From the UHGV virus genome UHGV-0390358: a DNA stretch of 40,847 nucleotides; one strand, written 5' to 3'. The notes beneath the pieces were generated by a model, which was not told the DNA's origin, did not search any database, and saw nothing but the letters and a program-made list of their open reading frames with translations. A program made the translations under genes and the position numbers. Source of the DNA: a virus. Below are positions 14,975 to 17,987 of this stretch, one piece after another. Each line of letters begins with the position of its first letter. Within the stretch, counting starts at the first letter, position 1.

Positions 14975-15559
14975 TTATTGTTTGCTTTTTTCGTTCTGGT
15001 TGATGACAAATTCAATGTAACTTTCGATCTTTGCTTTCTCGGTTTCGGGTAACAATGCGTAGCGTGAGCGGTCATAGTTGATAGTCGCAGGGTCGTGCGG
15101 GTGAATCAGTAGTTCATATCCGTGACGCCCGAATGCGGATGCAACATTCTCCAGGGTGGAAATGGAAACGCTGACCTCATTGTTTAACAGGCGGCTGATT
15201 GTCACCTGGGCGACGCCGGATGCGCGGTGAAGTTTTCCCTGTGTTGAAAGGTCGCGGCTTTCGCTCATCCAGCGTTCCAGGTTGTGAGCCGCCAGCTGAC
15301 CTATATCGCTCGGGCCGACAGGCTGAAAACCCTCCTGAGAAAGCGAACGATCAATATCAAGCCAGTTACGGGGTTTATTGGCGGCAGCTTCAATTTTTCG
15401 TGCAACCTGGTCGCCGATAACCTTCTTGCCAAGAGCCCAGCGGTTTACCAGATTTGCCTGAGTTCCAAGTTTTTCTGCCATCCGCGTCTGAACACCATTG
15501 AATTCACGGTCGATCAAGTCGTTGAGATTTTGCCTGCGGACGTCCTGGATACTTTTCAT
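14975..15559 (-). CDS. Prophage repressor with two tandem XRE-type HTH domains and no peptidase S24 autocleavage domain
   Basis: 194 aa; HTH-like segments QTRMAEKLGTQANLVNRWALGK and VAQVTISRLLNNEVSVSISTLENVASAFG; divergent from Cro-like gene across an operator-containing region. Confidence 0.7.
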   Translation of the reverse strand: MKSIQDVRRQNLNDLIDREFNGVQTRMAEKLGTQANLVNRWALGKKVIGDQVARKIEAAANKPRNWLDIDRSLSQEGFQPVGPSDIGQLAAHNLERWMSESRDLSTQGKLHRASGVAQVTISRLLNNEVSVSISTLENVASAFGRHGYELLIHPHDPATINYDRSRYALLPETEKAKIESYIEFVINQNEKSKQ

Positions 15560-15614
15560 TTTCTGGAAAATCGCCTCATATATGAATCAGTAGATGATTC
15601 AATTTAAAGCAATA

Positions 15615-15677
15615 TTACCCAACAGGTAAATGCACCTCATAGGTAACTATCCTTGATTTTTGTTACCTTATGGGTGA
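15615..15677. promoter_or_regulatory. Divergent immunity-region operators (three TTACC-N5-GGTAA-type sites)
   Basis: TTACCcaacaGGTAA 15615-15629; gCACCtcataGGTAA 15632-15646; TTACCttatgGGTgA 15663-15677 overlapping a TTGTTA-N17-TATTAT promoter candidate for the Cro-like gene. Confidence 0.6.
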
Positions 15678-15713
15678 ATATTTATTATCTGAAATAAATA
15701 TCAGGCAATAGCT

Positions 15714-15944
15714 ATGAGCGATAACGGACATTTCGATTTCAAAAAGCACTGGCTTGCACTTACTCCGGATGAGCGTGAAGCCTTCGCACAGGAAGCCGGA
15801 ACGACGAGTCACTATATCCAGACTCACTTAACAGGCAAGCGCAAAATGCCAGGTAAAGTATTGATGAATGGGCTTTTTAAAGCCTGTAAAACAAGACAAT
15901 GGCTGCGCTCAAAAGCAGAACTGGCATACTTCTTCTACTCATGA
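15714..15944 (+). CDS. Cro-like small HTH regulator
   Basis: 76 aa, divergent from repressor; HTH-like EREAFAQEAGTTSHYIQTHLTGKRKM. Confidence 0.5.
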   Translation: MSDNGHFDFKKHWLALTPDEREAFAQEAGTTSHYIQTHLTGKRKMPGKVLMNGLFKACKTRQWLRSKAELAYFFYS

Positions 15945-15965
15945 TATCCAGCTACAACCCTCTGT

Positions 15966-15990
15966 AGACCGCCACCCGGCGGTCTTTTCA
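15966..15990 (+). terminator. Rho-independent terminator after Cro-like gene
   Basis: GACCGCC-accc-GGCGGTC followed by TTTTCA. Confidence 0.55.
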
Positions 15991-16092
15991 TATCTATTCG
16001 TACCTCAAAGGTAATAAAAAACCAAATCTGGTTGATCAAATTTTCCAATTGTGCAAAATAGCCAATATCAATAACAAAAAGGGGCGGAAAAA

Positions 16093-16305
16093 TTGAAGAT
16101 AGTAACCAGAATGGAGGCCGCAAAAGCCGGGTTAAATCGCTATTTCACAGGAAAGCAGTGCCGTCACGGCCATCTCTCTGAAAGGTATGTTCTGAACGGA
16201 ACATGTGTTGAATGTGCAATGAATAGCGCCAACCGCCATCGTAATGAATTTGCTTGTGCACTAAAGAGTGCAAGAGGGGAAACCTATGGCAAGCAGCTGG
16301 ATTAA
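16093..16305 (+). CDS. Small zinc-finger protein (CxHxH...CxxC), possible regulator
   Basis: TTG start with AGGGG ribosome-binding site; motif GKQCRHGHLSERYVLNGTCVEC; start uncertain (alternative ATG at 16111). Confidence 0.35.
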   Translation: MKIVTRMEAAKAGLNRYFTGKQCRHGHLSERYVLNGTCVECAMNSANRHRNEFACALKSARGETYGKQLD

Positions 16306-17122
16306 GGTTGAAGTTATCACTCCTGATAAACCTGAAATTTTTCAGATAGCAGAAATTCTGGGTATTGATCCAGATGCTGTTCTTGGAAAGCTGGTTCGTA
16401 TATGGGCATGGGCTGACCAGCAAACAATAGACGGTAACGCTGGCAGCGTTACAAAAGGAGTACTTGATAGACTCGCTTTTATTACAGGATTTGCTGACGC
16501 CCTCATTAGCGTCGGATGGCTTGCTTATCATGACGGCAAACTAATTCTTCCAAACTTTGAGCGACACAATGGAGAATCATCGAAAAAACGTGCACTTACG
16601 AATAGAAGAGTGGCAGAGCATCGAAAACGAGTAACGCAAAAAGTAACGCCAACAGCGTTACAAAAGGAGTTACCAGAGGAAGAGGAAGAGGAAGAGGAAG
16701 ATATATATAAAACCCCACACATAGCGCACGTGCGCGAGGGTGCTCCGACCAGTGAAGCGAACAGTACGCCGTTGCAGGTGGCAGAACCTGAATTTCTGGA
16801 TGGCCTGAGTGAACCCATCGGGAAATTTCCGATGACAGATGGCTGGCTACCGTCGCCAGATTTTCGGCGGCGTGCTGCGCTGTGGGGAACGGCCCTGCCG
16901 GAACCTGAATTTACACCTGCTGAACTTGCTGCATTCCGGGATTACTGGATGGCTGAGGGCAAAGTGTTCACGCAGGTTCAGTGGGAACAAAAATTCGCCA
17001 GGCACGTAAATCATATCAGGGGAAAATCAAAAAATGCCGGGAAAAGCGATGAGCTTGACTGGAATAACACTGACTGGATAGAAGGGGTGTGGGATGAAAT
17101 CAACTCCAGAACTTCTCAATGA
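16286..17122 (+). CDS. Replication initiation / replisome organiser protein (lambda O-like role, DnaT-like C-terminal domain)
   Basis: Position immediately upstream of the P-like gene; poly-Glu linker; internal repeated DNA motifs (candidate origin); C-terminal ...AELAAFRDYWMAEGKVFTQVQWEQKFARHV. Confidence 0.55.
   Translation: MASSWIKVEVITPDKPEIFQIAEILGIDPDAVLGKLVRIWAWADQQTIDGNAGSVTKGVLDRLAFITGFADALISVGWLAYHDGKLILPNFERHNGESSKKRALTNRRVAEHRKRVTQKVTPTALQKELPEEEEEEEEDIYKTPHIAHVREGAPTSEANSTPLQVAEPEFLDGLSEPIGKFPMTDGWLPSPDFRRRAALWGTALPEPEFTPAELAAFRDYWMAEGKVFTQVQWEQKFARHVNHIRGKSKNAGKSDELDWNNTDWIEGVWDEINSRTSQ
16430..16712. repeat. Iteron-like repeats, (GAGGAA)4 and AT-rich tract inside the O-like gene: candidate replication origin
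   Basis: AGCGTTACAAAAGGAGT exact at 16445-16461 and 16654-16670 in different reading frames; GTAACGC at 16434, 16631, 16643; (GAGGAA)4 at 16676-16699 followed by ATATATATAAAA. Confidence 0.35.
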
Positions 17123-17870
17123 GTACGATCGCTTACGTGAGCATGGTGTTGCTGTGCATGAAGAGCGGCGTGACAGCAATGGCAAAAAGGAGCAGGTTGC
17201 TAGAATTTTCAATGAACTATTTGTCCAGTTACAGGCTGCATTTCCTGCAAGCGTTTCGACCATAAGGGAGCAGAACAAACTTAATGAATTCCGTAAGCAA
17301 TGGATGCTTGCGTTTCTGGAGAATGGGATCACTACAATGGAACAGGTTAACGCTGGTATGCGCCACGCCCGCGCCAGTGAATCTCCGTTCTGGCCGTCGC
17401 CAGGGCAATTCATCAAGTGGTGCAAAGACAGCAAGATGGTTCTTGGCGTCACCATTGACGATGTGATGGCGGAGTTTCACCGGTACAGCAAGGAAAAAAG
17501 TTTATATCCTGGTGGTCCCGAAAGATTCCCGTGGCGGCATCCGGTTATGTACTGGGTCGTATGTGATACCCGCCGTGCAATGTATCAGCGCCAGCTTAGC
17601 GAGATTGAGGTTGAGAAACACGCGCGCAGGCTGCTCGATGATTGGGCGAAAAAGGTGGCTTCCGGACAGCAGATACCCGATCCGGTGATCAGCATACAGG
17701 CAAAGCCAGAGCCCATGAGTACACCTCCGGACACAGGGAGAGACGTTTACCATCCACCAGGGCGAAGTTTCGGGTGCATGCCTAACGCCGCCACCCTTGG
17801 GGGAATAACACCGGCGCAGTGGCTGATGGAGGAATACAGGCGGGGAAAGGCGGCAGGATTTATCAAGTAA
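17094..17870 (+). CDS. Replication protein P-like (DnaB helicase loader)
   Basis: Clear similarity by eye to lambda P: ...AAFPAS...QWMLAFLENGITTMEQVNAGMRHAR...PSPGQFIKWC. Confidence 0.8.
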   Translation: MKSTPELLNEYDRLREHGVAVHEERRDSNGKKEQVARIFNELFVQLQAAFPASVSTIREQNKLNEFRKQWMLAFLENGITTMEQVNAGMRHARASESPFWPSPGQFIKWCKDSKMVLGVTIDDVMAEFHRYSKEKSLYPGGPERFPWRHPVMYWVVCDTRRAMYQRQLSEIEVEKHARRLLDDWAKKVASGQQIPDPVISIQAKPEPMSTPPDTGRDVYHPPGRSFGCMPNAATLGGITPAQWLMEEYRRGKAAGFIK

Positions 17871-17987
17871 TACCAGCGCGATAGCGCATTTTTTTACGCC
17901 TCAATAATTACCTATAAGGTAACAAAATATTCTAAGCTCTATTGATTTCGTGTCTTATGTGGTTTTTAATTACCTTAGAGGTAAATC

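What the first reader, a model, noticed from the sequence alone, without database searches (positions are those of the whole stretch)
16430..16712. Iteron-like repeats and a (GAGGAA)4/AT-rich tract inside the O-like gene: candidate origin
A 17-bp exact repeat AGCGTTACAAAAGGAGT occurs twice in different reading frames, which argues for conservation at the DNA rather than protein level. It is accompanied by direct and inverted GTAACGC copies, a GAGGAA tetramer and an AT-rich stretch, the same arrangement as ori-lambda inside gene O.
Basis: partly seen in the sequence, partly recalled or inferred. Interest (0 to 1): 0.45.

Follow-up and report, generated by a model that had tools for sequence, protein, structure and literature searches.

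The report
Phage replication origin inside initiator gene
The repeats are real and very probably mark the replication origin of this epsilon15/phiV10-like temperate phage: binding sites for the initiator protein, followed by a purine-rich stretch that probably melts easily, all sitting inside the initiator's own gene as in phage lambda, but built from an unrelated, undescribed DNA-binding domain and site.

Summary
The 17-mer is part of a 28-nt repeat (16434-16461 and 16643-16670). Its core is a 19-bp palindrome, GTAACGC-N5-GCGTTAC, the same 7-5-7 geometry as a lambda iteron. The second copy belongs to a four-half-site array (>> <<, 12-bp spacing). That array runs straight into (GAGGAA)4, a 12-nt A/T run and a GC palindrome.

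The host gene (16286-17122) encodes a winged-helix-like N-domain with no Pfam family, a disordered linker and a DnaT-type ssDNA-binding C-domain. A lambda-P homologue follows it.

About 100 relatives with the same N-domain (100% to 50% identity, Enterobacterales to Burkholderiales) all keep both palindromes. Arms are invariant, spacers vary freely, synonymous positions are frozen, and reading frames sometimes differ. Remoter subfamilies keep the architecture and the GA tract but use other half-sites (GTCCGC, GTAGAC, GTCAC). So the site co-varies with the N-domain.

phiV10 has another N-domain and carries lambda-like iterons at the same place.

Verdict: a lambda-style origin of an uncharacterised family. 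No experimental proof exists, and the "AT-rich" part is short.

The parts
16286..17122 (+). Replication initiator gene, the functional analogue of lambda O. It encodes an N-terminal winged-helix-like domain (aa 1-~90), a basic helix (aa ~90-118), a disordered linker (aa ~120-175) and a DnaT-type ssDNA-binding domain (aa ~177-251).
16434..16461 (.). Site cluster A: the 19-bp palindrome GTAACGC-TGGCA-GCGTTAC (16434-16452) plus AAAAGGAGT. It lies inside the coding sequence of the N-domain (codons 50-56, G-N-A-G-S-V-T), in a lower-confidence stretch between helices.
   Evidence: Kept in all relatives with a free spacer. Third-codon positions inside the arms are 96-100% conserved, against about 55% typically. 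Read in another frame in L018.
16631..16673 (.). Site cluster B: four half-sites at 12-bp spacing, arranged > > < <. They are GTAACGC (16631), GTAACGC (16643), GCGTTAC (16655) and GAGTTAC (16667). The cluster includes the second 19-bp palindrome at 16643-16661 and encodes the end of the basic helix and the start of the disordered linker.
   Evidence: Spacing statistics: 12 bp in 71 of 87 neighbouring pairs. The protein over it is variable and is read in two different frames among lineages.
16675..16701 (+). Polypurine tract AGAGGAAGAGGAAGAGGAAGAGGAAGA, i.e. (GAGGAA)4, which encodes poly-Glu. It directly abuts the last half-site and is the candidate unwinding or loading element.
   Evidence: this is the most purine-rich part of the window. 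The same position holds the most purine-skewed 50-nt window of the whole locus in 23 of 25 related loci. Distant subfamilies carry (GAGAA)4-5 there, a 5-nt unit read as REEKRRE, so the purine run rather than the peptide is what is kept. Copy number varies among close relatives.
16701..16712 (.). Short A/T run ATATATATAAAA. It is the least stable segment of the region.
   Evidence: the enclosing 15-mer ranks third least stable among non-overlapping 15-mers in 40.8 kb. Relatives have GATATAAAAGATAAAA-like A-rich sequence here.
16724..16735 (.). Perfect 12-bp GC-rich palindrome GCGCACGTGCGC on the right flank. Its role is unknown.
   Evidence: Relatives carry CGCGCG-rich sequence or C-runs followed by G-runs at this place.
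17094..17870 (+). Lambda P-like helicase loader. It overlaps the end of the initiator gene.
   Evidence: Pfam Phage_lambda_P PF06992, 1.7e-55. 39% identity to lambda P, E 2e-49.

Best explanation
This is the phage's origin of replication, embedded in the gene of its own initiator.

Proposed mechanism:
1. Dimers of the initiator's N-terminal winged-helix-like domain bind the GTAACGC-N5-GCGTTAC palindromes. They also bind the flanking half-sites of cluster B and the separate cluster A 209 bp upstream (palindrome start to palindrome start). Together these form a nucleoprotein complex comparable to the lambda O-some.
2. Under negative supercoiling, and with rightward transcription passing through the gene, that complex destabilises the adjoining polypurine (GAGGAA)4 plus A/T segment.
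3. The C-terminal DnaT-type ssDNA-binding domain, together with a lambda-O-like C-terminal tail, then brings in the lambda-P-like loader with host DnaB.

Shown here: the sites are under selection at the DNA level; they are always inherited together with this N-domain; and the half-site sequence changes when the N-domain diverges.

Inferred, not shown: that the N-domain is the binder, that melting occurs in the GA/AT tract, and that replication starts here.
For: 1. The repeats are non-random.

2. Conservation is at the DNA level.
- In 26 non-redundant loci (88 kb), 141 of 174 exact half-sites fall in gene nt 100-500.
- Arms are invariant while the 5-bp spacers vary freely.
- The four synonymous third positions inside the cluster A arms are 96-100% conserved against a background of about 55%. 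The chance that all four fall in the top 11 of 90 codons is about 1e-4.
- The palindrome is read in frame 1 in 16 loci and frame 0 in 1 locus for cluster A. For cluster B it is frame 1 in 9 loci and frame 0 in 4.

3. The site co-varies with the N-domain. Subfamilies with 32-47% identical N-domains keep two clusters, the > > < < order, 11-13-bp spacing and the GA tract. Their half-sites differ: GTCCGC in epsilon15 and phiPSA1, GTAGAC in Raharianne, GTCAC in a Vibrio phage.

4. The unit is modular. phiV10 shares the DnaT-like C-domain and the P gene but has an HTH_36 N-domain. At the same place in the gene it carries six lambda-like CCCAAAAACGGG repeats instead.

5. The gene is always the first gene of a replication module. 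Its partner varies: lambda-P-like, DnaC/IstB-like AAA+ proteins, a Toprim protein, or DnaB.

6. The layout matches the annotated lambda origin in geometry (7-5-7, 19 bp), in position at the inter-domain linker, and in having a purine-rich tract downstream. Lambda's organisation and the 19-bp inverted-repeat iteron are described in PMC7466680.

7. The linker encoded by cluster B, the GA tract and the A/T run is predicted to be disordered (pLDDT < 50), so it can tolerate DNA-level constraints.
Against: - There are no experimental data for this phage or for any member of the N-domain family. The vB_EcoP_ZX5 paper does not mention an origin, and literature searches found nothing.
- The A/T-rich tract is only 12 nt, and the region is 54-62% A+T, much less than in lambda. 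Duplex stability over 25-40 nt is unremarkable.
- Some relatives carry the same palindrome just upstream of the start codon. That shows the sites can also act as operators.
- Cluster A lies in a conserved protein segment, so part of its conservation comes from the protein.
- The GA tract is always read in the same frame (REEKRRE) in the distant subfamilies, so peptide selection there is not excluded.
Confidence: 0.75

Rival explanations
1. The palindromes are autoregulatory operators or roadblocks. The initiator, or another regulator, binds inside and near its own gene to limit its transcription or translation, and the true origin lies elsewhere.
For: Six relatives (L007, L008, L012, L013, L014, L016) carry a GTAACGC-N5-GCGTTAC palindrome, imperfect in L013 and L016, 25-60 bp upstream of the initiator start codon. 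That is a typical operator position. The palindrome geometry is the same as for many dimeric repressors.
Against: The window phage has no upstream copy. No other repeat cluster that could serve as an origin was seen in the replication module. The invariant pairing of cluster B with a polypurine/A-rich tract (23 of 25 loci) has no obvious role in repression. Autoregulation and origin function are not mutually exclusive.
Confidence: 0.1
2. The sites are bound by a different factor: a host protein, the small Zn-ribbon-like protein encoded at 16093-16305, or a methyltransferase or restriction function. They would then serve a purpose unrelated to the initiator's N-domain.
For: Binding was not tested. 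epsilon15 and a Vibrio phage have a cytosine methylase gene next to the initiator gene. GTAACGC is also over-represented elsewhere in the window: 12 copies outside the element against about 4 expected for the whole window.
Against: Neighbouring genes differ widely among loci that keep the sites. Only the N-domain is constant. The half-site changes exactly when the N-domain subfamily changes, across hosts from Vibrio to Ralstonia, which argues against a host factor.
Confidence: 0.08
3. There is no DNA-level function. The repeats would be by-products of coding: an internal peptide duplication and a slippage-prone poly-Glu linker.
For: (GAGGAA)n copy number varies among close relatives, as in a microsatellite. 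Cluster A encodes a conserved peptide.
Against: The two copies of the 17-mer are in different frames. Synonymous positions in the arms are frozen. The palindromes persist with different peptides and frames. The GA tract changes its peptide from REEKRRE to EEEEEE but stays polypurine.
Confidence: 0.02

Closest known systems
The phage lambda origin (four 19-bp iterons plus an AT-rich tract inside gene O, with the P loader downstream)
   Same: - The origin lies inside the initiator gene at the inter-domain linker.
- The binding sites are 19-bp units with 7-bp inverted arms and a 5-bp spacer.
- A purine-rich, less stable tract lies immediately to the right.
- A P homologue follows (39% identity).
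- The initiator ends in a similar tail, NTDWI-GV (PMC7466680).
   Different: - The N-terminal DNA-binding domain is unrelated (no Phage_rep_O or any other Pfam hit).
- The C-domain is DnaT-like.
- The sites are half-site arrays at 12-bp spacing in > > < < order, rather than four separate palindromes 20-24 bp apart.
- There is a second cluster 209 bp upstream, inside the DNA-binding domain's coding sequence.
- The 'DUE' is a GA repeat plus only 12 nt of A/T (54-62% A+T, against 70-72% in lambda).
The phiV10-type Uetakevirus replication module (same genus, alternative allele)
   Same: Same gene order, a DnaT-like C-domain, a P-like loader, and repeats in the middle of the initiator gene.
   Different: The N-domain is HTH_36. 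The repeats are six lambda-like (AT)CCCAAAAACGGG(AT) units plus three AACCAGTCATAT units. N-domain and repeats are exchanged together as one cassette.
E. coli DnaT (primosomal protein I). Relatives of this gene are annotated under that name.
   Different: No DnaT N-terminal domain. The NCBIfam DnaT equivalog scores 92 bits against a cut-off of 201. This is a phage origin-binding protein that has borrowed the DnaT domain, not a restart primosome factor.
Rac prophage oriJ / YdaU-YdaV module of E. coli K-12
   Same: A lambdoid replication module with an initiator-like gene followed by a loader. A Rac-like record (MN652886) labels a protein with a 70% identical N-domain as 'ydaU', and that gene carries the same GTAACGC clusters and GA tract. 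oriJ is reported to be an active origin (PMC3945230).
   Different: The K-12 YdaU itself has a DUF1376 N-domain with no similarity to this one (E 0.88). It has other mid-gene repeats (GATGTTCAA). So the experimental work on oriJ does not transfer to this family.
SV40/polyomavirus core origin, site II (recalled from memory, not tested here)
   Same: Four short half-sites arranged as two head-to-head pairs, flanked by an A/T tract. This suggests assembly of two initiator oligomers facing each other.
   Different: A eukaryotic viral helicase-initiator with no sequence or protein relationship. This is an analogy only.

Membership tests
Lambda-type phage origin (iterons plus an unwinding tract inside the initiator gene) | The repeated initiator-binding sites lie inside the initiator's coding sequence, at the linker between its two domains. 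| tested here: met
   Cluster B, the GA tract and the A/T run span gene nt 346-427 (aa 116-143), at the junction of the basic helix and the predicted disordered linker. The gene fraction is 0.41-0.51, against 0.39-0.53 in lambda.
Lambda-type phage origin (iterons plus an unwinding tract inside the initiator gene) | Several copies of a roughly 19-bp site with internal dyad symmetry. | tested here: met
   Two perfect 7-5-7 palindromes plus two extra half-sites. The lambda iterons ATCCCTC-N5-GAGGGAT were read from NC_001416.
Lambda-type phage origin (iterons plus an unwinding tract inside the initiator gene) | An adjacent A+T-rich DNA unwinding element of about 40 bp. | tested here: inconclusive
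   There is only a 12-nt A/T run, and 50-nt windows are 54-62% A+T against 70-72% in lambda. Purine strand asymmetry is met and is even stronger (82-84% against 78%).
Lambda-type phage origin (iterons plus an unwinding tract inside the initiator gene) | The initiator is homologous to lambda O (Phage_rep_O N-domain). | tested here: not met
   No Pfam or NCBIfam family matches the N-domain. BLASTP against lambda O aligns only the last 55 residues (E 0.003).
Lambda-type phage origin (iterons plus an unwinding tract inside the initiator gene) | A cognate helicase loader of the lambda P family is encoded directly downstream. | tested here: met
   PF06992, 1.7e-55; 39% identity to lambda P.
Lambda-type phage origin (iterons plus an unwinding tract inside the initiator gene) | The initiator binds the repeats, and the fragment supports initiator-dependent replication. 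| not testable with these tools
   This needs EMSA or footprinting and a plasmid replication assay. The only indirect support is the co-variation of half-site with N-domain.
DnaT (primosomal protein I) | Full-length equivalence to DnaT: an N-terminal PriB-interacting domain plus the C-terminal ssDNA-binding domain. | tested here: not met
   Only the C-domain matches (residues 173-254). NCBIfam NF002770 scores 92.4 bits against a cut-off of 201. PDB hits cover only DnaT residues ~76-157.
YdaU/DUF1376 initiators (Rac oriJ module of E. coli K-12) | Homology to K-12 YdaU (DUF1376 domain). | tested here: not met
   BLASTP E 0.88. There was no DUF1376 hit in the Pfam scans.
Iteron-plasmid origins (RepA/pi/TrfA type) | Tandem direct repeats of 17-22 bp in helical phase, bound by monomers of a double winged-helix Rep protein. 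| tested here: not met

The most novel reading that the evidence does not exclude
The element may define a widespread, undescribed class of phage and prophage origins. The class is found in Enterobacterales, Vibrio, Pseudomonas, Xanthomonas, Ralstonia and Burkholderiales, and includes epsilon15, SPN1S, CP2 and phiPSA1. Three features would set it apart.

1. The initiator's DNA-binding domain is encoded partly by its own binding sites. Gain or loss of a 12-bp half-site unit inserts or removes a 'GNAx' peptide unit in a loop of that same domain.

2. Unwinding or helicase loading would depend not on a classical AT-rich DUE but on a near-invariant polypurine repeat, (GAGAA)4-5 or (GAGGAA)n. The 23-nt core is identical in a Hahella prophage, Xanthomonas phage CP2 and Salmonella phage epsilon15, and is extended in phiPSA1 and Raharianne, while the N-domains are only 32-59% identical to the window protein.

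3. That repeat might be recognised as single-stranded or triplex-prone DNA by the equally conserved RHNGxSAKxRA basic helix. It would not be recognised by the C-domain, because the C-domain is exchangeable.
Probability: 0.3. Interest if true: 0.6.

Novelty: new variant of a known kind. Interest (0 to 1): 0.45.

Why it matters
It gives a concrete, testable origin, with coordinates, half-site consensus and partner proteins, for the Uetakevirus (epsilon15/phiV10-like) phages and for a large set of prophages whose initiator is currently mis-annotated as 'primosomal protein I/DnaT' or 'hypothetical'.

The natural series of N-domain and half-site pairs (GTAACGC, GTCCGC, GTAGAC, GTCAC) is a ready-made system for studying how initiator specificity evolves.

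The conserved GA-repeat next to the sites raises the question of how a tract that is not AT-rich can serve as an unwinding or loading site.

Practically, the fragment could be used to build phage-derived replicons. It could also predict replication-module incompatibility and recombination among prophages.

Tried and rejected
- Cumulative GC skew. The only inflection, at about 15-16 kb, coincides with the switch from leftward to rightward genes, so it is not independent evidence.
- Rfam scan of 15500-17900. No RNA family matched.
- DnaA boxes and GATC clustering. Nothing beyond chance in the element. There is a 756-nt GATC-free gap, which is unremarkable.
- Antisense terminator reading. The scan flags the cluster B palindrome plus TTTTT on the minus strand. 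No gene is transcribed leftward into it, cluster A lacks the T-run, and the T-run is simply the A5 spacer between half-sites. Rejected.
- Link to the experimentally known oriJ of Rac. The 'ydaU' label in MN652886 suggested it, but K-12 YdaU is a different (DUF1376) protein with different repeats. Rejected as a source of experimental support.
- Pfam and NCBIfam scans at permissive thresholds found nothing for the N-domain.
- Literature. Searches on phiV10/epsilon15 origin, DnaT plus iterons, the motif strings and oriJ/ydaU found no description of this element. Potrykus et al. 2000 (oriJ plasmids) is not held.
- Helical phasing of clusters A and B. Distances among relatives (198-237 bp) do not keep a constant phase (positions), so a strict looping geometry is not supported.

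Full report
**Context**

The window is a temperate podophage of the genus Uetakevirus (the epsilon15/phiV10 group). The 1.9 kb around the finding is 99.4% identical to Escherichia phage vB_EcoP_ZX5 and 97.8% identical to TL-2011b.

The local gene order is that of a lambdoid early-right operon:
- a CI-like repressor (14975-15559, minus strand);
- a cro-like gene (15714-15944), followed by a terminator-like hairpin at 15966-15985;
- a small ORF (16093-16305);
- the gene that holds the finding (16286-17122);
- a lambda-P homologue (17094-17870; PF06992 1.7e-55; 39% identical to lambda P);
- a DUF1064 gene.

**The observation**

- The 17-mer occurs only at 16445 and 16654, and the two copies are in different reading frames.
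- It is part of a 28-nt repeat, 25/28 identical. The core is a 19-bp palindrome, GTAACGC-N5-GCGTTAC (16434-16452 and 16643-16661). That pattern has 2 hits against 0.09 expected by chance.
- Five of the window's 17 GTAACGC copies lie within 228 nt.
- Around the second palindrome there are two more half-sites at exact 12-bp spacing. The array is GTAACGC-A5-GTAACGC-CAACA-GCGTTAC-AAAAG-GAGTTAC (16631-16673), in the order > > < <.
- The array abuts (GAGGAA)4 (16676-16699), then ATATATATAAAA (16701-16712), and then a perfect palindrome GCGCACGTGCGC (16724-16735).

The 'AT-rich' part is short. At the 15-nt scale it is the third least stable non-overlapping segment in the window, but at 25-40 nt it is unremarkable. 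The outstanding compositional feature is purine asymmetry: 16563-16712 is the most purine-rich stretch of the whole 40.8 kb at every scale tested.

**The gene product**

- The last residues resemble the C-terminal tail of lambda O (NTDWI-GV).
- The N-terminal 120 residues match no Pfam or NCBIfam family.
- Residues ~120-175 are predicted to be disordered. Cluster B, the GA tract and the A/T run (aa 116-143) straddle the end of the basic helix and the start of this linker.

**Comparative test**

Scanning genomes and viral contigs for the N-domain returned 19 + 80 loci, with 100% down to 50% protein identity. Hosts include Escherichia, Klebsiella, Enterobacter, Samsonia, Serratia, Yersinia, Pectobacterium, Pantoea, Erwinia, Hahella, a Xanthomonadales MAG, Pusillimonas, Janthinobacterium and a Phycisphaerales MAG.

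Every one of them keeps palindromes of this type at both places, exact in nearly all, with one or two arm mismatches in a few, mostly the most distant.
- In 26 non-redundant loci, 141 of 174 exact half-sites lie in gene nt 100-500. Neighbouring half-sites are 12 bp apart in 71 of 87 cases.
- The 7-bp arms are essentially invariant, while the 5-bp spacers differ freely.
- The third-codon positions that fall inside the cluster A arms are 96-100% conserved, against a typical value of about 55%. The chance of all four being among the top 11 of 90 codons is about 1e-4.
- The palindrome is translated as GNAxSVT in most loci but as VTLSALL in L018. In cluster B it is translated as V-T-x-x-A-L-Q in the window group and as x-N-A-x-x-V-T in others.
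- Extra half-sites appear as 12-bp insertions, which add 'GNAx'-type peptide units.

These patterns cannot be explained by selection on the protein alone.

**Co-variation**

A tblastn search of phage records showed remoter members of the same N-domain family (32-59% identical to the window protein in the alignment): epsilon15, SPN1S, phiPSA1, Ralstonia phage Raharianne, Xanthomonas CP2, Vibrio phages and a Rac-like prophage.
- CP2 and the Rac-like element keep GTAACGC.
- The others keep the architecture but use a different half-site. They still have two clusters, the > > < < order, 11-13-bp spacing, and cluster B running directly into a GA repeat.
- The half-sites are GTCCGC/GCGGAC in epsilon15 and phiPSA1, GTAGAC/GTCTAC in Raharianne, and GTCAC/GTGAC in the Vibrio phage.

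phiV10 shares the DnaT-like C-domain and the P gene but has an HTH_36 N-domain. At the same gene position it carries six lambda-like CCCAAAAACGGG repeats plus three AACCAGTCATAT repeats.

The C-terminal half of the protein and the downstream partner vary independently: lambda-P-like, DnaC/IstB-like, Toprim or DnaB.

So the N-domain and its sites travel as one cassette at the head of replication modules. That is the expected signature of an origin-binding domain and its origin.

**The GA tract**

In 23 of 25 loci, the most purine-skewed 50-nt window of the entire ~3.4-kb locus lies immediately after cluster B.

The distant subfamilies carry (GAGAA)4-5. The 23-nt string AGAGAAGAGAAGAGAAGAGAAGA is identical in a Hahella prophage, Xanthomonas CP2 and Salmonella epsilon15, and phiPSA1 and Raharianne carry it extended by a few bases. 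It is read as R-E-E-K-R-R-E, using AGA codons. The enteric GTAACGC group has (GAGGAA)n, which encodes poly-Glu.

The peptide changes character completely, but the polypurine nature and the position do not. Copy number also varies among near-identical phages.

I therefore read the GA tract plus the A-rich run as the candidate unwinding or loading element. Because the exchangeable C-domain cannot be its conserved partner, the tract either acts through its intrinsic DNA properties or is contacted by the conserved basic helix (motif RHNGxSAKxRA). This last step is inference.

**Comparison with lambda**

From the annotated lambda record: four iterons ATCCCTC-N5-GAGGGAT (7-5-7) occupy gene fraction 0.39-0.48 of O. 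They are followed by a tract of 78% purine and 70-72% A+T. PMC7466680 describes the same organisation and the 19-bp inverted-repeat iteron.

In the window, cluster B occupies gene fraction 0.41-0.46 and is followed by a tract of 82-84% purine and 54-62% A+T.

What is the same: position in the gene, site geometry, order of elements, P partner and C-terminal tail.

What differs: an unrelated N-domain, a DnaT-like C-domain, half-site arrays at 12-bp spacing, a second cluster inside the DNA-binding domain's own coding sequence, and a GA-repeat in place of a long AT-rich tract.

**What is not known**

- No paper I could search describes an origin for vB_EcoP_ZX5, phiV10, epsilon15 or this N-domain.
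- The active origin oriJ of the K-12 Rac prophage is not informative. K-12 YdaU has a DUF1376 N-domain unrelated to this one and carries other repeats.
- GC skew, Rfam, DnaA boxes and GATC gave nothing.

**Verdict**

The interpretation as a lambda-style origin inside the initiator gene is supported as strongly as sequence comparison allows. My confidence is about 0.75 for 'origin' and above 0.9 for 'protein-binding sites selected at the DNA level'.

It is a new variant of a known kind. The arrangement is classical, but the initiator domain, the site, the bipartite layout and the conserved polypurine repeat are undescribed and turn out to be widespread. Interest is moderate.

Noticed in passing
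L112 2620-3477 (E. coli K-12 MG1655 ydaU, Rac prophage): K-12 YdaU (DUF1376) is unrelated to the window initiator. It has its own mid-gene repeats: five (A)GATGTTCAA-type copies and inverted TGTTCAAACA arms. These are plausible iterons of the experimentally known but apparently never finely mapped oriJ.
   Followed up: partly
L003 1566-1755 (phiV10 replication initiation gene): Six lambda-like (AT)CCCAAAAACGGG(AT) repeats at 18-24-bp spacing, followed by three tandem AACCAGTCATAT units, inside the initiator gene of phiV10. That gene has an HTH_36 N-domain. This is probably the phiV10 origin.
   Followed up: partly
window, 12 sites outside 16434-16661 (e.g. 3096, 14784, 18833, 33827, 33923): GTAACGC is also over-represented outside the element: 12 further copies, against about 4 expected for the whole window. 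Whether these are weak initiator sites or just oligonucleotide bias was not examined.
   Followed up: no
window 16583-16602 (codons 100-105 of the initiator): A patch AAAAAACGnGCACTTAC whose synonymous positions are also almost invariant among GTAACGC-type relatives (K100, K101 and L104 at 95-100%). It is not a canonical half-site, and its function is unknown.
   Followed up: no
window 16724-16735: A perfect 12-bp palindrome GCGCACGTGCGC lies just right of the A/T run. Relatives have CGCGCG-rich sequence or C-runs followed by G-runs (CCCCCC..GGGG) at the same place.
   Followed up: partly
L007, L008, L012, L013, L014, L016, positions -25 to -60 relative to the initiator start: A third GTAACGC-N5-GCGTTAC palindrome (imperfect in L013 and L016) lies in the upstream leader of the initiator gene in several prophages. 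This suggests autoregulation in those elements. It is absent from the window phage.
   Followed up: partly
window 15966-15985 (+): A strong intrinsic-terminator-like hairpin, AGACCGCC-ACCC-GGCGGTCT followed by TTTC, lies after the cro-like gene. It is at the same place as the annotated terminator in phiV10 and is analogous to tR1, so the replication genes probably need antitermination or read-through.
   Followed up: no
window 16093-16305 (+): A small 70-aa ORF with CxxxH...CxxC spacing (PHROG 1081, function unknown) overlaps the start of the initiator gene. It is annotated in BUCT554 and phiV10 but not in vB_EcoP_ZX5.
   Followed up: no
L107 (epsilon15) and L111 (Vibrio phage 1.211.A), gene upstream of the initiator: In these two distant family members a C5-cytosine methyltransferase gene overlaps the start of the initiator gene. 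No link to the origin sites was examined.
   Followed up: no
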